A stretch of 32,000 nt of DNA from Panacagrimonas sp. (GCA_052389915.1 JBQTHL010000056.1:15481-47480), one strand, 5' to 3'. Positions 22,389-31,788 are shown, numbered from the stretch's first letter. Translations and numbers: made by a program. The notes: a model not told the origin generated them from the letters alone.

Positions 22389-22611
22389 AGTAGGAAGGGA
22401 ACGGCGGCAGGAGAATCCTGTCGCGCGCCTGCGCGTCCGACGCTTCGCAGGTCGACGCTGATCGCTTGCGCACGGCGTCCACCGCCCGAGCGCGTCCACG
22501 AGGCAGGCACCCGCTGGTCGGGGCGCTTCGCCCGCCGGTCCGAACTGGCATCAATCCAATCTATTCCCGGTATGATGTTGTTCTAACAAACATTTGGTAT
22601 GGAGAGTAAGG

Positions 22612-25110
22612 ATGTTTTGGAGTAGGTCTGCATGTCGCTGGTCAATCATTCCTGCGTTGCTGCTCGCAGGGCCGGCCGCGAACGCCGTCGAGTACGACTT
22701 CTCGGCAGGAGGCTTTGATTTTTCGTCAGTGTTGAACAATACCCTCACGCTTGGCGCTGCGTGGAGAATCGAGGGTCGATCAAATGATCTGGTCGGCAAG
22801 TCCAACCTCGATCCCGGGGTTTGTTCCGGTCCCTACCAGTCCTGCCAGGGCCTGCACCGCCTGCAGAACTTTCCCGCCCAACGGCTGGCGTCTGCGCCGG
22901 GTATGGCCTCCATCAACTTCGACGACGGCAATCTCAACTACAACAAGGGCGACATCATCCAGGCGCCGCTCAAGCTCTCGCAAGACCTTACCGTCAGCTT
23001 CGGAGACTACGGCATCTTTGTTCGAGGACTTGGCATTTTCGACCAGGCGAACTACTTCGACTTCCGCAATTTCTACCCCAACCAGATCACCGCCGAGAAC
23101 GTTGGCAGCGTGGGTATTGTCGGCAGCCCGACGTCCAACCGGTACCTGCCGCGGGTGTACGGTCCTGGGGCTCCGGTTCGCAGTGACCGGGCGGAAGACG
23201 AGGCGCAAGAAATCGGGCTCAGATACGACCTGCTCGATGCCAATTTCTACGGGAGTCTGCCTTTTGTCGGCGAACGCGAACTGACCTTTCGGCTCGGCCG
23301 GCAGACAGTGAATTGGGGCCAGAGCACGGTCGCGGTCGTCAACAGCGTCAACCAGGCGCAGCCGGTGAACGCGAACAGCCTTTACCGGCTCGGTTTCGGT
23401 CTGCTGGAGGAGCTCTTCGTCCCGGTGGGCATGGCGCGCTTCAGCACAGAACTGGTGAACGACGTCGGCGTCGAGATCTACTACCAGTACGAATGGGACC
23501 CGGTCGAGATTCCGACGCCTGGCAGCTACATGTCCTTCGTCGACATCGGTACCGACAATCTGCGCGGTACGGTCAACGCGGCGTTCGGTGGCGCGGCGGA
23601 CGACCCCGATCACGTCGGTGCGCCGCTGGACAACCCGCTCACCCTGATCACGCCAACCACCTTGACCCTGGATCGGCGCGGCGACAACGAGGCCCGCGAC
23701 CAGGGCCAGTACGGCATCGGCCTGAAGTATTACGCCGAGGAACTCAATAACGGCACCGAGTTCGCGGCTTACTTCATGAACTACCATTCGAAGCTGCCGT
23801 ACGTGAGTTTCTATTCCACCGATCCCAGTTGCGCCCGTCGCGAGGGCAGTTCCCGGGGCATCGACGCCACGAACACTCTCGAATTCCTGGCCGGGTGTCC
23901 AAACCTACCGGTCACCGCGCCGTCGGCGTCATCGCAACTGGCTCTCGATCTGGTCACTCTGGCGGCACAGAGGCCGGGCGCGCTCGCTGATCTGGGCGCC
24001 GGGACATTGGACCTGGGAGCCATTCTGGGCGGCGTGGGCGGACTATTGCTGCCGCAGCCTGGTCAGCAAATCAGTGACGCCGTGCCGCTGGACACGGCCC
24101 AGATCCAGCTCGAATACCCCGAAGACCTGAAGATGTTCGGGTTCAGCTTCACCACCACCGCTGGCGAGCTGTCCCTGCAGGGCGAGCTGTCCTACCGACC
24201 GAAACTTCCGCTGCAGGTTGCCCTGATCGATCTGGCCTTTGCCTCCTTCGGTCCCACTCTGACCCGCTGCCACGACCGGAACCTGGGTTGCCTGGGCGCC
24301 TCTGCGGGACTCGGGTTCAACGAGGCGGGGAGCTACGTGGTCTACGACGGCAACAACTTCACCGACGCCAGCGGCAACAACCCCTACCCTGATGCAATCA
24401 ATCTGGTCGTGGGCGCGGCGCCGGGTTCGGCGCGTTCCTTTCCCAACTTCATCGTGCCCTACCGCGGCGGTGTGGTAGGCGAGAATCCGCCGAACAGCTA
24501 CATCCGCGGCTGGATTCCTGGAAAGGTGGCGCAGTACAACTTCGGAGCGACGCAGGTGCTCGGCCCGAACGAGAACTGGATTGCTGCGGACCAGGTGATC
24601 CTGCTCTACGAACTGGCGGCAACCCATGTGCTCAACATGCCGGATTTCGACAAGCTGCAGATCGAAGGCCCGCTGACGGCGACCACGCACGCCAGCGCCG
24701 GCGCCGATGGCAGTGGTGCGGATGGATCGCGCCTAGCCTGTTCGACCAATCCCTCGTGCTCGGTGGGTCCGGACGGACTGCGCTTCAACCCTTACCAGGC
24801 ACCGCGTAGTGCATTCGCCGATGCATTTTCCTGGGGCTATCGCATCGTTGGGCGCATCGCCTACGAGTCGGTGTTCCCTTCGATCAGCATCCAGCCGTTG
24901 TTCATCTGGTCACAGGACATCGGTGGCAACTCGCCGGGACCGGCCGGCAATTTCGTGGAAGGCCGCAAGACCCTGAACTTCCTGCTGGAAACGCGCTACG
25001 GGAAGTCCTACTCGTTCACTATCGCCTACAACAGTTTCTTCGGCGGCGGTAAGGACAACCTTTACGAGGATCGCGACAACCTCGGCTTTTATGTCAAGTA
25101 CCAGTTCTGA
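22612..25110 (+). CDS. DUF1302-family outer-membrane beta-barrel protein
   Basis: ORF 22594..25110 trimmed to ATG 22612, with GGAGAG at 22601-22606. The signal peptide ends ...LLLAGPAANA. LTLGAAWRIEGRSNDLVG and INFDDGNLNYNKGDIIQAPLKLSQDL are typical DUF1302 N-terminal blocks. The C-terminus ...LGFYVKYQF ends in an aromatic residue, as OMP signatures do. Confidence 0.8.
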   Translation: MFWSRSACRWSIIPALLLAGPAANAVEYDFSAGGFDFSSVLNNTLTLGAAWRIEGRSNDLVGKSNLDPGVCSGPYQSCQGLHRLQNFPAQRLASAPGMASINFDDGNLNYNKGDIIQAPLKLSQDLTVSFGDYGIFVRGLGIFDQANYFDFRNFYPNQITAENVGSVGIVGSPTSNRYLPRVYGPGAPVRSDRAEDEAQEIGLRYDLLDANFYGSLPFVGERELTFRLGRQTVNWGQSTVAVVNSVNQAQPVNANSLYRLGFGLLEELFVPVGMARFSTELVNDVGVEIYYQYEWDPVEIPTPGSYMSFVDIGTDNLRGTVNAAFGGAADDPDHVGAPLDNPLTLITPTTLTLDRRGDNEARDQGQYGIGLKYYAEELNNGTEFAAYFMNYHSKLPYVSFYSTDPSCARREGSSRGIDATNTLEFLAGCPNLPVTAPSASSQLALDLVTLAAQRPGALADLGAGTLDLGAILGGVGGLLLPQPGQQISDAVPLDTAQIQLEYPEDLKMFGFSFTTTAGELSLQGELSYRPKLPLQVALIDLAFASFGPTLTRCHDRNLGCLGASAGLGFNEAGSYVVYDGNNFTDASGNNPYPDAINLVVGAAPGSARSFPNFIVPYRGGVVGENPPNSYIRGWIPGKVAQYNFGATQVLGPNENWIAADQVILLYELAATHVLNMPDFDKLQIEGPLTATTHASAGADGSGADGSRLACSTNPSCSVGPDGLRFNPYQAPRSAFADAFSWGYRIVGRIAYESVFPSISIQPLFIWSQDIGGNSPGPAGNFVEGRKTLNFLLETRYGKSYSFTIAYNSFFGGGKDNLYEDRDNLGFYVKYQF

Positions 25111-25190: not shown

Positions 25191-25309
25191 CACTCTGCAC
25201 ATTTAAAAGAGACTTCGAGCCGGCCTGAGAGGGATCCGTGCATTGAAGTTTCGATCAGTGCGGTGGCTTGCCACCGCGCGTTTGTCGGCGGGGAGGAGTC
25301 CCCTGGAAC

Positions 25310-26092
25310 ATGATCGTATTCCCAAAGTGGAAGGCTGTCGCCGCGCGGATGCTCGGCCTGTCGCTGGCGGTTGCCGTGCCCTGCGCGCCGGCTCAGGACG
25401 CTGCCGGCAAGGCGCTGGACGCGGTGGTCGATGGCAACCGCGCCGCGAGAACGTCCCAGCAGAGGGTCGATAGCCTCGACGATCAGACCAAGTCCATGCT
25501 CGAGCGCTATCGCGCCGCGAGCTGGCAGGCGCAGCAACTCACGGTCTATGCCAAGCAGCTCGGCGAACTGGTGTCCGCGCAGGAGGGCGAACGCAGCTCG
25601 ATCGAGCGTCAGATCACCGAGATGGAGCGCACCGAGCGCGAGCTGCTGCCGCTGATGCTGCGCATGGTCGAGGGGCTGGAGAAATTCATCGCGCTGGACC
25701 TGCCGTTTCTGGCGACCGAGCGCCGCGAGCGGCTGGACACGCTGAAGAAGCTCATGTCCGATCCTGAGGCGAACAACGCCGAGAAGTTCAAGCGCCTTCT
25801 GGAAGCCTGGCAGATCGAATCGGAGTACGGACGTTCGATCGGCACCGAGCGCGCCGAGGTCGAGGGCCGCACCGTCGATGTGCTGCGTCTGGGGCGCACG
25901 GCGCTGTACTACCTGTCGGCCGATGGCAAGCAGGCGGGAACCTGGAACAGCAGCAGCGGCGCCTGGGAGGCACTCCCGCATCAGCACGTCGCTCAGGTGC
26001 GGCATGGCCTGCGCATGGCGCGGGAAACGGCCGCGCCGGATCTGCTGAGGTTGCCTGTCGCTGCCGCCGCTGCGGCCGGAGCCGCGCCATGA
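25310..26092 (+). CDS. DUF3450-family periplasmic coiled-coil protein (TtpB-like TonB2-system component)
   Basis: ORF 25268..26092 trimmed to ATG 25310, with GGGAGGAG at 25291-25298. It has a signal peptide and a long coiled coil. The blocks ELLPLMLRMVEGLEKFIALDLPFL and EKFKRLLEAWQIESEYGRSIG are typical of DUF3450. ATGA overlap with the next gene. Confidence 0.8.
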   Translation: MIVFPKWKAVAARMLGLSLAVAVPCAPAQDAAGKALDAVVDGNRAARTSQQRVDSLDDQTKSMLERYRAASWQAQQLTVYAKQLGELVSAQEGERSSIERQITEMERTERELLPLMLRMVEGLEKFIALDLPFLATERRERLDTLKKLMSDPEANNAEKFKRLLEAWQIESEYGRSIGTERAEVEGRTVDVLRLGRTALYYLSADGKQAGTWNSSSGAWEALPHQHVAQVRHGLRMARETAAPDLLRLPVAAAAAAGAAP

Positions 26093-27477
26093 GGCGTGAC
26101 TGCGCATTCTGGCGCGGGCTCATCGCGGCGGCGTTGATGCTCGGCACCGGCACCGGCGCCTTGCACGCGCAGGCGCCTTCGCCCTCGCAGAAAGGCATGG
26201 ACGAACTGCTCAAGCAGATCCGCCAGGGGACGCAGGAGGCCGCCAAGCTCAACGCAGAACGCGAGCAGCGTTTCCTGCGCAACAAGAACGAGCAGGCCGC
26301 TTTGCTGGCCAAGGCCGAGGCGGATCGCGCTGCCGCCGGCGCGCGGGCCGATCAGGCAAAAGCGCAATTCGCGGCCGGCCAGGCCCAGATCGCCGAACTC
26401 AAGAAGCGCCTGACCGAGCGCCTGGGCGACAGCGGGCAGATGTATGCGGCGATCGCGCAGTCCGCCGGCGAGTTCCGCAGCCAGATCGCCGGCTCGCTGG
26501 TTTCGGCGCAATACCCGGATCGCGCCGAGTTTCTGGATCGCATCGCACAGGCGGGCGAGGTGCCGGGCGTGGCCGACCTGGAGCAGCTCTGGTTCCTGTA
26601 CGCACAAGAGGCCGCCGAGAGCGGGCGGGTGGTGCGCTTTCAGGCCGAGGTGCTCGATGCCTTGGGAGAAAAATCGAAGACCGAGGTGATCCGGGTGGGC
26701 CAGTTCACGGCGCTGACCGAAGAGGGCTATTTGACCCTGCAAGCCGGGACCGCAGCGCTCGCACTGCTGCCGCGCCAGCCCGACGGCAATTCGGGACTCG
26801 TCGAGGATTTCAGCGCGGCGGGCGAGGGCTTGCACACGGTGCTGATCGACCCCTCGCGCGGCGACCTGCTGCGCAAGATCGCCGAGCGGCCCACCACGAT
26901 GGAGCGCATCCATCAGGGTGGCGAGGTGGGCTACGTCATCATCGCCATCGGTGTGATCGGCGCGGTGCTCGCGGCCTACCAGTTCGGGTACCTGCTGCTG
27001 GTGGGTGTGAGGGTGCAGCGGCAGTTGCGGGACGTGGCGCAGCCGCGCGAGGACAATCCGCTGGGTCGCGTGCTCGCCAGCCTGAAGATCGACGCCACGC
27101 AGGATCCGGAAGTGCTGGAGACGCGCCTGTCCGAGGCGGTGCTGCGCGAGACGCCCAAGCTGGAGCGATTCCAGTCGCTGCTGCGCATGATCGTCGCTGC
27201 GGGTCCGCTGCTGGGCCTGCTCGGCACGGTGATCGGCATGATCATCACCTTCCAGGTCATCACCGAGGTCGGTGCGGGCGATCCCAAGCTGATGGCCGGT
27301 GGCATCTCGCAGGCCATGATCGCGACGGTGCTCGGCCTGATCATCGCTATCCCCTTGCTGTTCGTGAACAGCTTCCTGATGACCCGTTCGCGCAGCATCA
27401 CGCAGGTTCTCGACGAGCAGGCCGCCGGGCTGCTGGCGCAGCGCCTGGAAGCGGCAGGCGGGCGCCAGCATGCTTGA
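26089..27477 (+). CDS. Long MotA/TolQ/ExbB-family proton-channel protein with large N-terminal periplasmic coiled-coil domain (TtpC-like)
   Basis: 462 aa. The C-terminal channel block is AAGPLLGLLGTVIGMIITFQ...GGISQAMIATVLGLIIAIPLLF. The N-terminal ~270 aa are extra-membranous and coiled-coil-rich. Confidence 0.85.
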   Translation: MRRDCAFWRGLIAAALMLGTGTGALHAQAPSPSQKGMDELLKQIRQGTQEAAKLNAEREQRFLRNKNEQAALLAKAEADRAAAGARADQAKAQFAAGQAQIAELKKRLTERLGDSGQMYAAIAQSAGEFRSQIAGSLVSAQYPDRAEFLDRIAQAGEVPGVADLEQLWFLYAQEAAESGRVVRFQAEVLDALGEKSKTEVIRVGQFTALTEEGYLTLQAGTAALALLPRQPDGNSGLVEDFSAAGEGLHTVLIDPSRGDLLRKIAERPTTMERIHQGGEVGYVIIAIGVIGAVLAAYQFGYLLLVGVRVQRQLRDVAQPREDNPLGRVLASLKIDATQDPEVLETRLSEAVLRETPKLERFQSLLRMIVAAGPLLGLLGTVIGMIITFQVITEVGAGDPKLMAGGISQAMIATVLGLIIAIPLLFVNSFLMTRSRSITQVLDEQAAGLLAQRLEAAGGRQHA

Positions 27478-28009
27478 GCTGATCGTCCAGTCGTTCACGG
27501 AGCAGTACGACACGCTCGGCGAGTTCCTCGATGCGGGCGGCTGGGTGACGCGCTGGATCCTCGCGGCCTGTGCCGTCCTGCTCACCGTCGTGTTCGAGCG
27601 CCTCTGGTATCTGTGGCGCATCTATCCGCGCGTGCGTGCCGCGACCCTAGCCGGGTGGAACGCGCGCAGCGAGCGCCACTCCTGGGTCGCGCACCGCATC
27701 CGCACGGCGCTGATCAGCCAGTTGCGCATGGGCCTGGAATCCGGCCTGCCCATCATCAAAGTGATGGTGCCGATGGCGCCGCTGCTCGGCCTGCTCGGCA
27801 CCGTGATGGGCATGCTGCAGGTGTTCGACGCGATGGCCTTCAGCAAGGGCGGCGACACGCGCGCGATGGCCGACGGCATCTCGCACGCGATGATCGCGAC
27901 CATGGCCGGGCTGGTGGTGAGCGTGATTGGGCTGTTCTTCAGCAACCTGTTCGCCTCGCGGGTGCGGGTTGAGTCGGAACGGCTGAATGATTTGATTGCG
28001 CCGGGCTGA
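27470..28009 (+). CDS. exbB: MotA/TolQ/ExbB proton-channel protein
   Basis: 179 aa. Contains MAPLLGLLGTVMGMLQVF...DGISHAMIATMAGLVVSVIGLFF. It overlaps the upstream gene by 8 nt. Confidence 0.9.
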   Translation: MLELIVQSFTEQYDTLGEFLDAGGWVTRWILAACAVLLTVVFERLWYLWRIYPRVRAATLAGWNARSERHSWVAHRIRTALISQLRMGLESGLPIIKVMVPMAPLLGLLGTVMGMLQVFDAMAFSKGGDTRAMADGISHAMIATMAGLVVSVIGLFFSNLFASRVRVESERLNDLIAPG

Positions 28010-28016
28010 TGCGCAC

Positions 28017-28421
28017 ATGAAATTCCGCCGCCACAACCCGCCTCCCGAAGACACCGGCATCGACCTCGCGCCGATGCTCGACTTCGTGATGAACCTTCTG
28101 ATCTTCTTCATCATCGCTGCGGCCTTCGTGCAGGAGTCCGGCATCCGCGTGAACAAGCCGGCCGCGAAGACCGCGCAGCAGGAGGACAAGACCAGCATCT
28201 TCGTCGCCATCTCGGCGACCAATGAGATCTGGATCAATCGCGAGCGCGTCGACATCCGCCGCCTGCGCACCGAAATCGAACGCGTGCGCCGCGACAAGCC
28301 CAAGGCCGTGGTCGTGATCCAGGCCGACCAGGACGCGCGTGCGGGGCTGATGGTGGAAGCGATGGATCAGGCGCGGCTGGCCGGCGTGCCGGACGTGTCG
28401 ATCGCGGCGACACCGAAATAG
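28017..28421 (+). CDS. exbD: ExbD/TolR biopolymer transport protein
   Basis: ORF 27996..28421 trimmed to ATG 28017. Contains IDLAPMLDFVMNLLIFFII (TM helix with the conserved Asp), then ...VVIQADQDARAGLMVEAMDQARLAG. Confidence 0.9.
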   Translation: MKFRRHNPPPEDTGIDLAPMLDFVMNLLIFFIIAAAFVQESGIRVNKPAAKTAQQEDKTSIFVAISATNEIWINRERVDIRRLRTEIERVRRDKPKAVVVIQADQDARAGLMVEAMDQARLAGVPDVSIAATPK

Positions 28422-28424
28422 CGC

Positions 28425-29153
28425 ATGAACGCCCTGGCACAGAACCGCGGACCGCGCTGGCTGGTGCTGCCGGTGCTGGGCCTGCTCGCGACGGTGCTGC
28501 TGTTCCTGGTGCTGGGCTGGATCATCCGGGGGGATGAAGGCGAGGGGCTTGGCCCCGAGCGACTGCTCGACCCGGTGGACATCGTGCGCAACGAACCGCC
28601 GCCGGTGGAGCCGCCGAATCCGCTGGAAGCCCTGGACAACTCGCCGCCGCCGCCGCCCGCCGCCCCGCCGCCGATGGGCCGCCCCGATCTGCCGGCGCTG
28701 GACGTGCCGAGCCTGGCCCTGGACCCCAGCGCGATCGGCAACATCGTGGTGCCGGTGGCGCTGGGCGAGACCGGGCGTGCGCTGGGCAAGGTCGGCAGCT
28801 TTGGCGGCTTCGGCAGTGGACGCGGGGGGGCGGGCACGGGCAGCGGGCTGGGCGGCACCGGCAAGGGCGGCTGGAAGGGCAAGCCGCTGGTGCCGCTCTC
28901 GACCGCGCGGCCGCAGATGCCGGACTGGGCCTGCAAACAGAAGCTCAGTGGCTGGGTGGAAGCAATTTTCACCGTGATGCCGAACGGCCGGGTGCAGGAC
29001 GTGAAGATCGTCGAGGCCGATCCGCGCGGCGTGTTCGAGGCCGCGGCGGTGGAGAGCATTTCGCAATGGATTTACGAGCCCACCGGCAAGGCCGCCGAGG
29101 TCAAGCAGCGCGTGCCGATGAATCATGAAGACTGTGCGTACAACTGGCGCTAG
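28425..29153 (+). CDS. tonB: TonB-family energy transducer
   Basis: 242 aa. It has an N-terminal anchor helix, a Pro-rich spacer (EPPPVEPPNP...SPPPPPAAPPP) and a Gly-rich segment. The C-terminal TonB domain reads SGWVEAIFTVMPNGRVQDVKIVEADPRGVFEAAAVESISQWIYEP. Confidence 0.88.
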   Translation: MNALAQNRGPRWLVLPVLGLLATVLLFLVLGWIIRGDEGEGLGPERLLDPVDIVRNEPPPVEPPNPLEALDNSPPPPPAAPPPMGRPDLPALDVPSLALDPSAIGNIVVPVALGETGRALGKVGSFGGFGSGRGGAGTGSGLGGTGKGGWKGKPLVPLSTARPQMPDWACKQKLSGWVEAIFTVMPNGRVQDVKIVEADPRGVFEAAAVESISQWIYEPTGKAAEVKQRVPMNHEDCAYNWR

Positions 29154-31788
29154 ACCGGACGCGCATGCGCGCGCCGTTCCAATTCGGCGGGTTCAATCCG
29201 ACGTGGAGTCGCGAGAGCGACGACGGCGCGGCTTGAACCACCGGCTTGCGCCCGGACTGTTCCTCCTTTTCGCCAGTGGTGCCCACGCCGATCAGTACCG
29301 CAGCGAGGTCCACGAGATTGCGCCGCCTCCGGTCCAGACCCAGGCGGTGGATCTCGCCGCGCTGCTCAAGTCCACCACCGATCCCTACGAGCGCGCGTTG
29401 CTGCTGCGCGAACTGGGCGGAGCCGCGGCAGGGCGCAAGGATTACAAGGAGGCCCAGCGCCTGCTGCAAGAGGCGCTCGCACTCAAGTCGCTCTCCGGTC
29501 CTGCGGCGGAGATGATGAAGAAGGATCTGGCGGCGCTGGCCCTGGCCACGGGCAATATCAAGGACCAGATTCCCCTGCTGGAATCCATCGTCAAGTCCGG
29601 CAATGCCAGCCCCGAAGTCCTGGTCGCGCTGGGCGCCGCCTACGTGCAGAACAAGCGCTTCAGGGACGCCATTCCGCTGCTCAAGCAGGGCATCGCGGCG
29701 TCGACCCGACCCGACGTGAGCTGGCGCATGACCCTGATCGCCGCCCTGATTGGCGCCGGCCAGTACGCCGAGGCGGCCAGGCCGCTCGAACAGGTGCTGC
29801 GCGAAGACCCGGCGCAGCGCGAGTCCTGGCTGCAACTTGCGGCCCTGTACCTCAAGACCGGCAACAAGGAGCGCGCGCAGGCGGCCATGGAAATTGCCAG
29901 CCGCCTGGGTTATCTCAACGATGCCGCAGACCGGCTGCGGCTGGTTACGCTCACCGGGCAGATCGGCGCGCCGTTCGAGGCGGCCTCCCTGTTGCAGGGC
30001 TGGATGGGCGCCGGGCAGGTGCCGAAGAACCTGGACAACCAGAAGCTGCTCGCCGCGCTATGGGTGCGCGCGCGCGAAAGCCGGCTGGCGCTGGCGGTTC
30101 TGAACGAACTGGCCGCAGCGCGCCCGAGCCGCGAGCTGTACGAACAGATGGCGCAGCTCCATCTGGAGCGCCAGGATTACGAGCGCGCGGCGCAGGCCAT
30201 GTCGCAGGCGATCCAGCTCGGCGGCAAGTCCGGCGTGGTGCTGATGAGCCTCGGGCTTGCGCGCTACCAGTTGGCCGACGTGGATGGTGCGATAGAGGCT
30301 TTCCGCGAGGCCACCGCGTTCGCCCCGCAGAAAAAGATCGCGCAGGACTGGCTCAAATACCTCCAGTCCGGACAGGCGCGCGAACAGGCGCTGGCCGCGG
30401 CCGTCACCGCCGTGCGCTCGGACTCCGACGAGATCGCGCTCAGCTCGCGGCTGCTCGGTGGCGGCGTGGTGTTGGCCTCCGGAGCGGAGAGCGGCCGCGC
30501 CATCGGCGGCCGCGCGCGCGCCACCGGCGAACTGACGCCCGTCGGCGCCGAGCGTGACGGCAACGCCGAAGGCACCATCCCGCCCTGGACCGGCGGGCTC
30601 ACGCCCTCCCAGTGGCCCGCCGGCTTCAAGAAGGGCGGGCGGCTGGTGGATCCCTATCCCAACGACCGACCGTTGTTCACCATCACGGCGGCCAATGCGG
30701 ACTCGTATCGAGGGATGCTGTCCAAGGGCCACCAGGCCCTGCTGGCGGCCCATCCGGGCTATCGCATGCCGGTGTACACCAGCCGGCGCGGGGTGGCGTA
30801 TCCACAGGCGGTCTACGATGCGAGCCAGGCCAACATCGGCCGCGCCAAGCTGCTGGGTTCCGACGCGCTCGAAGGAGCGAAGCTGGGGTTTCCCTTCCCC
30901 AAGCCGGAAACCGGCGTGGAGGCCATGTGGAACCACCGCGTGCGCTACCGCGGCAATACCGTGGCCCTGCAGAGCCGGCAGGTCGTGCTCAATGCCGGGG
31001 GCAAGGAGACCCAGAGCGCGCGCGTCAATGAAAGCGCGTATTTCCGCTACGGCAACACCGCCGACCCGGTGGACATCAACACGCAGAACATCCTGCTGTA
31101 TTACTTGCTGCGCTTTACTGGCGTGGGGCTGTCGCGCTTCGTCGCGCTGGCGCACGAGACCGCCAATTCGGAGAAGGACGCGCGCGCGATCTGGGTGGCG
31201 CCGCCGGGTTCGCCCAAGCTGTTCCGCATTCCGCCGGTGGGTTACGACCAGCCCTTCCCGGGCACCGAGGCGATGTACTTCGTCGACATGATCGACATGT
31301 ACAACGGCCCCTTCGACCGCTACGTGTGGAAGCTGGTGGGCAAGCGCGAGCTCTACCTGCCGTACAACGGCTACCGGCTGTCCGATGGCAGCCAGAAATA
31401 TGCGCAGCAGCTCACGCCGCATTTCTTCAACCCGGCTAATACGCGCTATGAATTGCACCGGGTGTGGGTGATCGAGGCCAGCGAGCGCGGCGGCAAGAGC
31501 CACAGCTTCGGCCTGCGCGTGTTCTACATCGACGAGGACAGTTGGAACGTGGTGCTGGTCGAGAATGAGGACCGCCAGGGCAGGCTGTGGCGCTTCCAGG
31601 AAGGGCACCTGCTGCCGCTGTACGACGCGCTCGCCGCCAACAGCTTCCCGGTCATCACCTACGACCTGAAGGACGGACGCTATTACGCCAACCGCCTGCT
31701 GTCCGAGGAGCCTCCGCCGCAGTACGACCTCCGCATGGACGTGGGTGACTTCCTGCCGGCGACCGTCGCCACAAAGTACCTGCGCTGA
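29125..31788 (+). CDS. Fusion protein: N-terminal TPR-repeat domain (TtpD-like) + C-terminal DUF1329 (LolA-like outer-membrane lipoprotein-sorting-like) domain
   Basis: One continuous 887-codon ORF. The start is uncertain. ATG 29125 overlaps tonB by 29 nt. In-frame GTG 29203 or TTG 29233 would place the signal-peptide-like NHRLAPGLFLLFASGAHA at the N-terminus. TPR-like helical repeats span about 29380-30400. The DUF1329 hallmarks are LTPVGAERDGNAEGTIPPWTGGL (from about 30529), PLFTITAANADSY and GFPFPKPETGVEAMWNHRVRYRG. Confidence 0.8.
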   Translation: MKTVRTTGARPDAHARAVPIRRVQSDVESRERRRRGLNHRLAPGLFLLFASGAHADQYRSEVHEIAPPPVQTQAVDLAALLKSTTDPYERALLLRELGGAAAGRKDYKEAQRLLQEALALKSLSGPAAEMMKKDLAALALATGNIKDQIPLLESIVKSGNASPEVLVALGAAYVQNKRFRDAIPLLKQGIAASTRPDVSWRMTLIAALIGAGQYAEAARPLEQVLREDPAQRESWLQLAALYLKTGNKERAQAAMEIASRLGYLNDAADRLRLVTLTGQIGAPFEAASLLQGWMGAGQVPKNLDNQKLLAALWVRARESRLALAVLNELAAARPSRELYEQMAQLHLERQDYERAAQAMSQAIQLGGKSGVVLMSLGLARYQLADVDGAIEAFREATAFAPQKKIAQDWLKYLQSGQAREQALAAAVTAVRSDSDEIALSSRLLGGGVVLASGAESGRAIGGRARATGELTPVGAERDGNAEGTIPPWTGGLTPSQWPAGFKKGGRLVDPYPNDRPLFTITAANADSYRGMLSKGHQALLAAHPGYRMPVYTSRRGVAYPQAVYDASQANIGRAKLLGSDALEGAKLGFPFPKPETGVEAMWNHRVRYRGNTVALQSRQVVLNAGGKETQSARVNESAYFRYGNTADPVDINTQNILLYYLLRFTGVGLSRFVALAHETANSEKDARAIWVAPPGSPKLFRIPPVGYDQPFPGTEAMYFVDMIDMYNGPFDRYVWKLVGKRELYLPYNGYRLSDGSQKYAQQLTPHFFNPANTRYELHRVWVIEASERGGKSHSFGLRVFYIDEDSWNVVLVENEDRQGRLWRFQEGHLLPLYDALAANSFPVITYDLKDGRYYANRLLSEEPPPQYDLRMDVGDFLPATVATKYLR

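What the first reader, a model, noticed from the sequence alone, without database searches (positions are those of the whole stretch)
29125..31788. TtpD-like TPR protein fused in frame to DUF1329, with a relic signal-peptide-like segment in the linker
SEEN: one uninterrupted ORF joins about 340 aa of TPR-like repeats to a full DUF1329 domain. The linker (about nt 30412-30528) reads VRSDSDEIALSSRLLGGGVVLASGAESGRAIGGRARATGE. It contains a hydrophobic stretch (LLGGGVVLASGA) followed immediately by LTPVGAERDGNAEGTIPPWTGG. In stand-alone DUF1329 proteins that block lies just after the signal peptide. An in-frame GTG sits at 30412. INFERENCE: there are two readings. Two neighbouring genes (ttpD and DUF1329) may have fused by loss of a stop, turning the old signal peptide into a linker. 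Alternatively, internal initiation still yields a separate secreted DUF1329 protein. Either way the fusion physically ties the TonB2 accessory TPR protein to the DUF1302 partner.
Basis: partly seen in the sequence, partly recalled or inferred. Interest (0 to 1): 0.6.

Follow-up and report, generated by a model that had tools for sequence, protein, structure and literature searches.

The report
TonB2 TPR subunit fused to DUF1329
This gene really does join the TPR accessory subunit (TtpD) of a Vibrio-type TonB2 membrane motor to a LolA-like DUF1329 domain in one exported protein, but the join is ancient and fixed across the whole order Nevskiales, and the "relic signal peptide" in its linker fits by position yet cannot be proven.

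Summary
ORF 29125-31788 is uninterrupted: a TtpD-type TPR solenoid, a roughly 38-residue disordered linker and a full DUF1329 (LolA-like) domain.

It is not a local stop-codon loss or an assembly artefact. About 110 of 151 sampled genomes of the order carry both halves in one frame, at 38-88% identity. So do 80 named loci, including type strains of Panacagrimonas, Hydrocarboniphaga, Solimonas and Nevskia. The gene is almost always the last gene of a TtpB-TtpC-ExbB-ExbD-TonB operon.

Relic signal peptide:
- Position fits. The linker motif lies where the hydrophobic core of a signal peptide lies in stand-alone DUF1329 proteins.
- Hydrophobicity does not fit. The family mean is 1.24, against 2.55 for real signal peptides, and this window's 1.96 is an outlier.
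- No unfused adjacent gene pair was found.

Internal initiation is unsupported: there is no Shine-Dalgarno sequence and no conserved start codon.

The tie to DUF1302 is local. Both copies in this genome sit next to a DUF1302 gene, but only 5 of 80 loci elsewhere do.

A TonB-box-like look of the linker motif gave mixed test results and stays a lead.

The scan noted the same fusion earlier on other DNA (e1-2465981). I found no paper describing it.

The parts
22594..25110 (+). DUF1302 outer-membrane barrel gene directly upstream of the motor operon (context; this adjacency is not conserved in most relatives)
   Evidence: Pfam PF06980 E 1.6e-151. DUF1302 lies within 9 kb of the fusion in only 5 of 80 named loci and in 0 of 5 complete genomes.
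25268..26092 (+). TtpB-like DUF3450 protein
   Evidence: Pfam PF11932 E 2.3e-77. Conserved upstream of the fusion.
26089..27477 (+). TtpC-like long MotA/TolQ/ExbB protein
   Evidence: Pfam PF01618. Conserved.
27470..28009 (+). ExbB
   Evidence: Pfam PF01618 and NCBIfam exbB/tolQ matches below cut-off.
27996..28421 (+). ExbD
   Evidence: Pfam PF02472 E 1.7e-27.
28425..29153 (+). TonB (C-terminal domain at residues 163-232)
   Evidence: Pfam PF03544 E 1.5e-11; NCBIfam tonB_Cterm above cut-off.
29125..31788 (+). TtpD::DUF1329 fusion gene as the longest ORF. The likely real start is GTG 29203 or TTG 29233.
29203..29289 (+). N-terminal Sec-type signal peptide: Arg-rich n-region, hydrophobic core, A-H-A, then mature D-Q-Y-R-S-E
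   Evidence: Read from the sequence. All homologues have a hydrophobic N-terminus ending A-x-A before Q-Y-x-S. The mean 10-residue Kyte-Doolittle value of the N-terminal cores is 2.55.
29353..30417 (+). TtpD-type TPR solenoid, residues 77-431 (about 22 helices)
   Evidence: Pfam TPR families. AlphaFold2 pLDDT is mostly above 85. It is 27-35% identical over about 340 residues to TPR proteins that follow exbD-tonB in other Gammaproteobacteria.
30418..30531 (+). Disordered interdomain linker, residues 432-469
   Evidence: AlphaFold2 pLDDT below 50 for 429-441 and 445-467. Column conservation is 0.42, against 0.68 for the TPR half and 0.75 for the DUF1329 half. Length is 41-58 residues in 121 homologues, measured over the slightly wider stretch between residues 425 and 471.
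30433..30483 (+).
   Evidence: Column counts: L 110/121, S 90, R 95, L 99, G 105, V/I 101. Its position matches signal-peptide cores of stand-alone DUF1329 proteins. It is absent in distant fused members.
30532..31785 (+). DUF1329 domain (LolA-like fold) beginning with L-T-P-V-G-A-E
   Evidence: Pfam PF07044 E 2.6e-100. Foldseek matches: LolA3 9tp6 (TM 0.81), 3bk5, and the DUF1329 structure 4z48.

Best explanation
The gene encodes one exported periplasmic protein. It has an N-terminal Sec signal peptide, a TtpD-family TPR solenoid, a flexible linker of 40-60 residues and a LolA-like DUF1329 domain. It is the last gene of a TonB2-type operon (TtpB-TtpC-ExbB-ExbD-TonB-TtpD).

The fusion arose once or very few times, before the radiation of the Nevskiales, and has been kept since. 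It takes the place of stand-alone TtpD in one class of TonB2 motors. Other TonB2 motors in the same genome keep a plain TtpD.

Inferred function: the linker tethers a LolA-like module to the proton-driven TonB2 motor. Such a module binds hydrophobic cargo or an outer-membrane barrel. This would couple the motor to traffic of hydrophobic compounds across the envelope rather than, or in addition to, classical TonB-dependent receptors. In this genome the likely outer-membrane partner is the DUF1302 barrel encoded directly upstream.

The linker may descend from the signal peptide of a once separate DUF1329 gene, but it no longer has signal-peptide properties. There is no sign that a separate DUF1329 protein is made.

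Shown: the architecture, its conservation, the operon position, the folds, and the lack of a conserved internal start. Inferred: the tethering function, the hydrophobic cargo and the DUF1302 partnership.
For: - The frame is uninterrupted and both domains are present.
- 311 full-length homologues were found.
- About 110 of 151 genomes of the order have a single-frame match over both halves with no stop, at 38-88% identity.
- The fusion also occurs in a family outside the order, with the same operon upstream.
- 80 named loci carry it, including cultured type strains.
- The library of representatives at 50% identity holds 14 fused clusters, plus more distant TPR::DUF1329 proteins at 29-30% identity.
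- The operon TtpB-TtpC-ExbB-ExbD-TonB-fusion is present in about 70 of 80 loci.
- The AlphaFold2 model has two confident domains and a disordered linker, with pTM 0.54, so there is no fixed orientation between the domains.
- The DUF1329 half has a LolA-like fold.
- The N-terminal signal peptide is conserved.
- This genome has four TonB2-type clusters. Two have plain TtpD, one of them beside a TonB-dependent receptor. Two have the fusion, and both follow a DUF1302 gene.
- Literature: DUF1302 and DUF1329 are co-fit with BNR and RND genes on Tween 20 (10.1101/072470; 10.1101/2020.07.04.188060). A DUF1302-DUF1329 complex was predicted with ipTM 0.84 (PMC13499233). TtpD2 is essential for TonB2-dependent transport in Vibrio vulnificus (PMC6957404).
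Against: - No experiment shows the size of the protein in cells.
- Cleavage in the linker after export cannot be excluded.
- DUF1302 is near the fusion in only 5 of 80 loci and in 0 of 5 complete genomes, so the DUF1302 partnership may be particular to this genome or act in trans.
- The function of DUF1329 itself is unknown.
- No complex could be modelled with the tools at hand.
Confidence: 0.8

Rival explanations
1. The linker motif is a TonB-box-like strand. The C-terminal domain of the operon's own TonB would grip the linker by strand pairing and pull on the DUF1329 domain. That would make the fusion protein the direct mechanical client of the motor, like the TonB box that lies between the N-terminal extension and the plug of some TonB-dependent receptors.
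For: The motif is the only conserved stretch in a disordered linker. An unseeded motif search on this genome's 34 TonB-dependent receptors recovers their TonB box, often preceded by S-R-L-(L/V). A profile-profile alignment places the linker consensus V-x-V-x-A on the TonB-box core I-V-V-T-A. Its score of 7.9 is above all 200 column-shuffled controls, whose maximum is 7.8.
Against: A position matrix built from the same TonB boxes scores the linkers near background. The family mean is -0.6 and this window -0.1. Real boxes score 16.5, and about 17-20% of random 46-residue windows score as high as the linkers. The HHalign probability is only 2.5%. The motif is absent in distant fused members. The comparison was made after the resemblance had been seen.
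Confidence: 0.12
2. Internal initiation in the linker (GTG 30412 or nearby) still yields a separate secreted DUF1329 protein that uses the hydrophobic stretch as its signal peptide.
For: In-frame GTG codons exist at 30412, 30466 and 30469. This window's stretch reaches a Kyte-Doolittle value of 1.96 over 10 residues and is followed by A-S-G-A. One database gene call (P0123) starts inside a homologous linker.
Against: No Shine-Dalgarno sequence lies upstream of 30412. The n-region from 30412 would carry no net positive charge. Residue 430 is R, A or K in most relatives. The conserved V/I codon before the motif is ATC here and a mix of GTG, GTC, GTT and GCC elsewhere. Linker hydrophobicity in the family is 1.24 +/- 0.37, against 2.55 for real signal peptides.
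Confidence: 0.04
3. The protein is made as one chain but is cut in the linker after export, so the two halves act as separate periplasmic proteins. The fusion would then serve only co-export and fixed stoichiometry.
For: The linker is long, disordered and of low complexity. It holds one conserved motif that could be a protease site.
Against: There is no direct evidence. If only co-expression mattered, operon adjacency would suffice, and fission would be expected to occur often. Yet the fusion is kept in about 110 of 151 genomes.
Confidence: 0.1
4. The fusion is an assembly or sequencing artefact, or a recent stop-codon loss private to this genome.
For: None beyond the signal-peptide-like look of this window's linker.
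Against: The same single frame is found in more than 100 independent genomes, including finished chromosomes and isolates. A second copy, 71% identical, is present in this genome.
Confidence: 0.01

Closest known systems
Vibrio TonB2/TonB3 six-protein systems (TtpB-TtpC-ExbB-ExbD-TonB-TtpD; PMC6957404)
   Same: The gene order and Pfam content are the same: DUF3450, long MotA/ExbB, ExbB, ExbD, TonB, then a TPR protein as the last gene. The TPR half is homologous to TPR proteins at that position across Gammaproteobacteria.
   Different: TtpD in Vibrio is a stand-alone protein of about 425 residues. Here it carries a linker and a DUF1329 domain of about 420 residues. It also has a family-specific mature N-terminus, Q-Y-x-S, that stand-alone TtpD relatives lack. 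Vibrio TonB2 serves siderophore receptors; no such receptor lies in this window.
Stand-alone DUF1329 proteins paired with DUF1302 barrels (e.g. Pseudomonas putida PP_0765/PP_0766, Shewanella Sama_1588/1589; 10.1101/072470, 10.1101/2020.07.04.188060, PMC13499233)
   Same: The Pfam domain matches at full length. The conserved start T-P-x-G-A-E...G-x-I-P-x-W is the same. The fold is LolA-like. In this window a DUF1302 gene is in the same operon-like block.
   Different: Stand-alone members have their own Sec or Tat signal peptide and usually lie directly after DUF1302. The fused clade lies after tonB and mostly has no DUF1302 nearby. Its nearest stand-alone relatives (P0137, P0140) are not next to TonB genes.
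TonB-dependent receptors with an N-terminal extension (FecA/FpvA type), named from general knowledge
   Same: The layout is similar: N-terminal domain, then a flexible linker carrying a short conserved strand-like motif, then a C-terminal module associated with an outer-membrane barrel.
   Different: There is no plug and no 22-strand barrel. The motif does not score as a TonB box with this genome's own matrix. This is an analogy only.

Membership tests
TtpD (TPR accessory protein of TonB2-type systems) | TPR-repeat protein of about 400 residues | tested here: met
   Several Pfam TPR families match over residues 90-430. The AlphaFold2 model shows a helical solenoid at 77-431.
TtpD (TPR accessory protein of TonB2-type systems) | Encoded directly after tonB in a ttpB-ttpC-exbB-exbD-tonB cluster | tested here: met
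   Gene order in the window. The same order is present in about 70 of 80 related loci.
TtpD (TPR accessory protein of TonB2-type systems) | Sequence homology to TPR proteins at the same operon position in other taxa | tested here: met
   84 of 400 class genomes match at E <= 1e-8. 28 of 29 fetched hits follow exbD-tonB.
TtpD (TPR accessory protein of TonB2-type systems) | Direct similarity to the characterised Vibrio vulnificus TtpD2 | not tested
   No Vibrio TtpD2 sequence was in hand, and I did not type one from memory.
TtpD (TPR accessory protein of TonB2-type systems) | Required for TonB2-dependent transport | not testable with these tools
   This needs genetics, as done in PMC6957404.
DUF1329 (PF07044, LolA-like clan) | Match to PF07044 above the gathering score over the whole model | tested here: met
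   336.7 bits against a cut-off of 23.1, covering model positions 1-353 of 368.
DUF1329 (PF07044, LolA-like clan) | LolA-like open beta-barrel fold | tested here: met
   Foldseek matches: 9tp6 LolA3 (TM 0.81), 3bk5 (0.73), 4z48, a DUF1329 structure (0.71).
DUF1329 (PF07044, LolA-like clan) | Own N-terminal signal peptide directly before the domain | tested here: not met
   The domain is internal and export must use the signal peptide of the TPR half. Stand-alone paralogues have Sec or Tat signal peptides.
DUF1329 (PF07044, LolA-like clan) | Gene adjacent to a DUF1302 barrel gene | tested here: inconclusive
   Met in this window and in the second copy on contig C77. Found in only 5 of 80 related loci and 0 of 5 complete genomes.
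Sec signal peptide (claimed relic in the linker) | Hydrophobic core comparable to real signal peptides | tested here: not met
   The best 10-residue Kyte-Doolittle value is 1.96 here and 1.24 +/- 0.37 in the family. N-terminal signal peptides of the same proteins score 2.55 +/- 0.34. Only 2 of 121 linkers reach 2.0.
Sec signal peptide (claimed relic in the linker) | Position relative to the start of the DUF1329 domain as in stand-alone proteins | tested here: met
   The motif ends a median of 18 residues (15-26) before 'TP'. The signal-peptide cores of 85 stand-alone proteins end a median of 16 residues (8-23) before it.
Sec signal peptide (claimed relic in the linker) | Start codon with ribosome-binding site and a positively charged n-region | tested here: not met
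   There is no Shine-Dalgarno sequence before GTG 30412. The start codon is not conserved. The n-region has no net positive charge (read).
TonB box | Match to the TonB-box pattern of the genome's own TonB-dependent receptors | tested here: inconclusive
   The position matrix gives -0.1 for this window and a family mean of -0.6, against 16.5 for real boxes, with p about 0.2. The profile-profile alignment lands on the box core and beats 200 of 200 column shuffles, but with a probability of 2.5%.

The most novel reading that the evidence does not exclude
The conserved strand-like motif in the disordered linker is a handle for the operon's own TonB. The TtpD::DUF1329 protein together with a plug-less DUF1302 barrel would then form a split, TonB2-energised outer-membrane transporter for hydrophobic substrates. 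In it a LolA-like cap, not a plug domain, is what TonB pulls.
Probability: 0.1. Interest if true: 0.8.

Novelty: new variant of a known kind. Interest (0 to 1): 0.42.

Why it matters
TtpD, DUF1329 and DUF1302 are all widespread envelope proteins with no known mechanism. A fusion kept across a whole order is a natural "Rosetta stone". It indicates that the TPR subunit of a TonB2-type motor and a LolA-like DUF1329 module act together in the periplasm. That yields a concrete, testable hypothesis: some TonB2 motors energise traffic of hydrophobic compounds such as hydrocarbons, lipids and esters, and not only uptake through classical TonB-dependent receptors. The carriers are hydrocarbon-degrading genera (Hydrocarboniphaga, Polycyclovorans, Algiphilus, Solimonas) with cultured, sequenced strains, so the experiments are feasible.

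The specific claim of this finding, a relic signal peptide or an internal start, is of minor interest. It is only weakly supported.

Tried and rejected
1. Search for an unfused ttpD-DUF1329 gene pair as the ancestral state. 400 class genomes were searched with the TPR half. The 26 stand-alone hits whose flanks were fetched have no DUF1329 within about 1.5 kb downstream. The closest stand-alone DUF1329 proteins (P0137 at 54% identity, P0140 at 50%) are not near TonB genes. An apparent unfused hit in G014 was a contig-end truncation.
2. TonB-box matrix test. The result was not significant. No TonB box was found in the two DUF1302 proteins, in other operon proteins or in the Tat-type DUF1329 paralogues.
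3. Conserved DUF1302 adjacency: rejected. An earlier tblastn-only check was unreliable, because it also missed the divergent DUF1302 on contig C77.
4. Docking of the linker on either domain: the AlphaFold2 model gives no confident contact.
5. The profile search of solved structures found only TPR proteins. DUF1329 was reached only by fold comparison.
6. The small ORF overlapping the 3' end (31745 onwards) is not similar to the small gene that follows the fusion in Panacagrimonas, and it has no Pfam match.
7. The look-up of P0116 found no record.
9. Literature searches for the fusion found no description: DUF1329 with DUF1302, DUF1329 with TonB, TtpD, DUF3450, and Nevskiales genera with TonB.
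Full report
**1. Observation**

The + strand frame from 29125 to 31788 is open for 887 codons. Pfam finds several TPR families over about residues 90-430. It finds DUF1329 (PF07044) at 519-870 with E 2.6e-100.

The genes upstream on the same strand are, in order:
- DUF1302 (22594-25110)
- DUF3450, TtpB-like (25268-26092)
- a long MotA/ExbB protein, TtpC-like (26089-27477)
- ExbB (27470-28009)
- ExbD (27996-28421)
- TonB (28425-29153)

This is the gene order of the Vibrio TonB2 system, in which TtpB2 and TtpD2 are essential (PMC6957404).

ATG 29125 overlaps tonB by 29 nt. Homologues have only 20-30 residues before a conserved mature N-terminus (D/Q/E)-Q-Y-(R/K)-S-E that follows A-x-A. The real start is therefore probably GTG 29203 or TTG 29233. 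Any of the three starts gives the same Sec-type signal peptide, so the whole protein is exported.

**2. The fusion is real, old and fixed**

- A full-length search found 311 homologues. The best 120 all carry TPR plus DUF1329 and are 55-88% identical. Named sources include Panacagrimonas, Solimonas, Hydrocarboniphaga, Nevskia, Stenotrophobium, Fontimonas and Sinimarinibacterium.
- In 151 sampled genomes of the same order, 128 have a match. About 110 have one match that spans both halves in one frame with no stop, down to 38-42% identity, across most of the order's eight sampled families.
- Genomes G304 and G470, from a family outside the order, also have the fusion behind the same five motor genes.
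- A scan of one genome per species returned 80 named loci, all fused. They include Panacagrimonas perspica DSM 26377, Hydrocarboniphaga effusa AP103, Solimonas flava DSM 18980, Nevskia soli DSM 19509, Fontimonas thermophila DSM 23609, Polycyclovorans and finished Algiphilus chromosomes.
- A library of 1.84 billion representatives at 50% identity holds 14 full-length fused clusters. It also holds more distant TPR::DUF1329 proteins at 29-30% identity with the same mature N-terminus.
- This genome has a second copy on contig C77, 71% identical.

An assembly indel or a private stop-codon loss is therefore excluded without reads.

**3. Identity of the two halves**

The TPR half alone matches 84 of 400 sampled genomes of the class. 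Of 29 fetched hits, 28 lie directly after exbD-tonB homologues on the same strand, and the other is at a contig end. So it is a TtpD-position protein by both homology and context.

Stand-alone relatives end 8-35 residues after a conserved W-x-x-Y motif, which corresponds to about residue 431 here.

The AlphaFold2 model was built on 74 sequences, with mean pLDDT 83.9. It shows a helical solenoid at 77-431, a segment below pLDDT 50 at 429-467, and a beta-rich domain from about 468. Its pTM of 0.54 means the two domains have no fixed mutual orientation.

Foldseek matches the C-terminal domain to LolA3 of Porphyromonas gingivalis (9tp6, TM 0.81), 3bk5 and the DUF1329 crystal structure 4z48.

**4. 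The linker**

In 121 homologues the linker is 41-58 residues long. It contains one conserved motif, (V/I)-x-L-S-x-R-L-L-G-x-x-V-x-(V/L)-x-A. A variable stretch rich in Ala, Ser, Gly and Pro follows, and then L-T-P-V-G-A-E. Column conservation is 0.52 for the motif and 0.31 for the rest of the linker. The TPR and DUF1329 halves reach 0.68 and 0.75.

Evidence for a relic signal peptide:
- In 85 stand-alone DUF1329 proteins, the most hydrophobic 10-mer of the signal peptide ends a median of 16 residues (8-23) before 'TP'.
- In the fused proteins the motif ends a median of 18 residues (15-26) before 'TP'.
- The length accounting also works: TtpD tail, plus a short intergenic stretch, plus about 20 residues of signal peptide, plus a short mature N-terminus.

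Evidence against:
- The best 10-residue Kyte-Doolittle value is 1.24 +/- 0.37 in the family. The N-terminal signal peptides of the same proteins score 2.55 +/- 0.34.
- Only 2 of 121 linkers reach 2.0, and this window's 1.96 is an extreme.
- Distant fused members have unrelated, often acidic linkers.
- No unfused neighbouring pair was found.

In a tree of DUF1329 domains, the fused proteins and nine stand-alone proteins form one clade with 100/99 support. Monophyly of the fused proteins is not rejected (p-AU 0.18). The nearest stand-alone proteins carry a signal peptide only 2-8 residues before 'TP'. The direction of change, signal peptide to linker or linker to signal peptide by fission, cannot be decided.

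The relic reading is plausible but unproven.

**5. Internal initiation**

GTG 30412 has no Shine-Dalgarno sequence. Most relatives have R, A or K at that column. The conserved V/I codon just before the motif is ATC here. In 12 relatives it is GTG six times, GTC twice, GTT twice and GCC once. A product starting at 30412 would have an n-region with no net positive charge. This reading has no support.

**6. A lead: is the motif a TonB box?**

An unseeded motif search on this genome's 34 TonB-dependent receptors recovers their TonB box, L-(E/D)-(E/T)-I-(V/T)-V-T-(A/G). It is often preceded by S-R-L-(L/V), which looks like the linker's S-x-R-L-L...V-x-V-x-A.

Tests gave mixed results:
- A matrix from those boxes scores the linkers at a mean of -0.6, and this window at -0.1. 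Real boxes score 16.5. About 17-20% of random or shuffled 46-residue windows reach the linker scores.
- A profile-profile alignment does place the linker consensus on the box core. It beats all 200 column shuffles, but only narrowly (7.9 against a maximum of 7.8), and the probability is 2.5%.
- No box was found in the DUF1302 proteins or other operon members.

I keep this as a low-probability lead. The comparison was made after the resemblance had been seen.

**7. Context and likely function**

The operon TtpB-TtpC-ExbB-ExbD-TonB-fusion is present in about 70 of 80 loci. The remainder are mostly cut short by contig ends.

DUF1302 is within 9 kb in only 5 of 80 loci, and it is not near the fusion in any of five genomes searched whole, three of them single-contig. 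In Panacagrimonas and Hydrocarboniphaga, an MMPL/RND gene with a LolA-like gene lies about 4 kb upstream instead.

This genome has four TonB2-type clusters:
- Two have plain TtpD (C8 and C103). The C103 cluster lies next to a TonB-dependent receptor.
- Two have the fusion. Both follow a DUF1302 gene, and on C77 the block is BNR-DUF1302-DUF1329.

The neighbours here include a copper monooxygenase operon upstream (earlier notes, not retested). Downstream lie a PQQ alcohol dehydrogenase with a cytochrome c domain, a wax-ester synthase and an OmpA protein.

Published work links DUF1302 and DUF1329 with BNR and RND genes by co-fitness, for example on Tween 20 (10.1101/072470; 10.1101/2020.07.04.188060). 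It also predicts a DUF1302-DUF1329 complex (PMC13499233).

My best reading is that the fusion tethers a LolA-like module to a TonB2 motor and so couples the motor to envelope traffic of hydrophobic compounds. The tethering is inferred from the architecture. The cargo and the DUF1302 partnership are inferences from context.

**8. Novelty and verdict**

Public records label these proteins "DUF1329 domain-containing" or "TPR repeat protein". I found no paper that describes the fusion. The scan noted the same fusion before on other DNA (e1-2465981) with a similar verdict, which my own tests reproduce.

The architecture is a new variant of a known kind of system. The particular point of this finding, a relic signal peptide or an internal start, is weakly supported and of limited interest.

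Noticed in passing
window 29290-29310 (residues 56-62): The mature N-terminus (D/Q/E)-Q-Y-(R/K)-S-E directly after the signal peptidase site is invariant at Q57, Y58 and S60 in 74 fused homologues. It persists in TPR::DUF1329 proteins at 29-30% identity. It lies in a region the model predicts as disordered, and stand-alone TtpD relatives lack it. It may be a second short docking motif specific to the fused family.
   Followed up: partly
G000 contig C77:1-14760 (locus L062): The second copy of the cluster has the gene order BNR/YCF48-like, divergent DUF1302, Tat-signal DUF1329, TtpB, TtpC, ExbB, ExbD, a glycosyltransferase-4 gene inserted between exbD and tonB, TonB, then the fusion.
   Followed up: partly
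G000 contigs C8:46570-52058 and C103:22477-31755: The same genome has two further TonB2-type clusters with plain, unfused TtpD. The C103 cluster lies just downstream of a TonB-dependent receptor gene. This is a within-genome contrast to the two fused clusters that follow DUF1302 genes.
   Followed up: partly
loci L060 and L061 (Panacagrimonas, Hydrocarboniphaga): An MMPL/RND gene with sterol-sensing and cNMP-binding domains lies a few kb upstream of the motor operon in about 14 of 80 loci (preceded by a small LolA-like gene where that was seen: L060 and one further locus), followed by greA and a rhodanese gene.
   Followed up: no
G000 contig C56:48758-53764 (locus L063:2259-7265), downstream of the window: On the minus strand lie a PQQ alcohol dehydrogenase with a C-terminal cytochrome c domain, a wax-ester synthase (WS/DGAT) and an OmpA-family protein. 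This fits a hydrocarbon and lipid metabolism neighbourhood.
   Followed up: no
proteins P0272, P0264, P0371, P0267 (other metagenomes): DUF1329 also occurs with other N-terminal extensions of 240-800 residues. One includes a PKD-like domain and the others have no Pfam match. TtpD is therefore not its only fusion partner.
   Followed up: no
window 30058-31608, minus strand: A 516-codon antisense ORF overlaps the DUF1329 half, along with several other long ORFs on other frames. These are typical of GC-rich DNA and are not genes.
   Followed up: no
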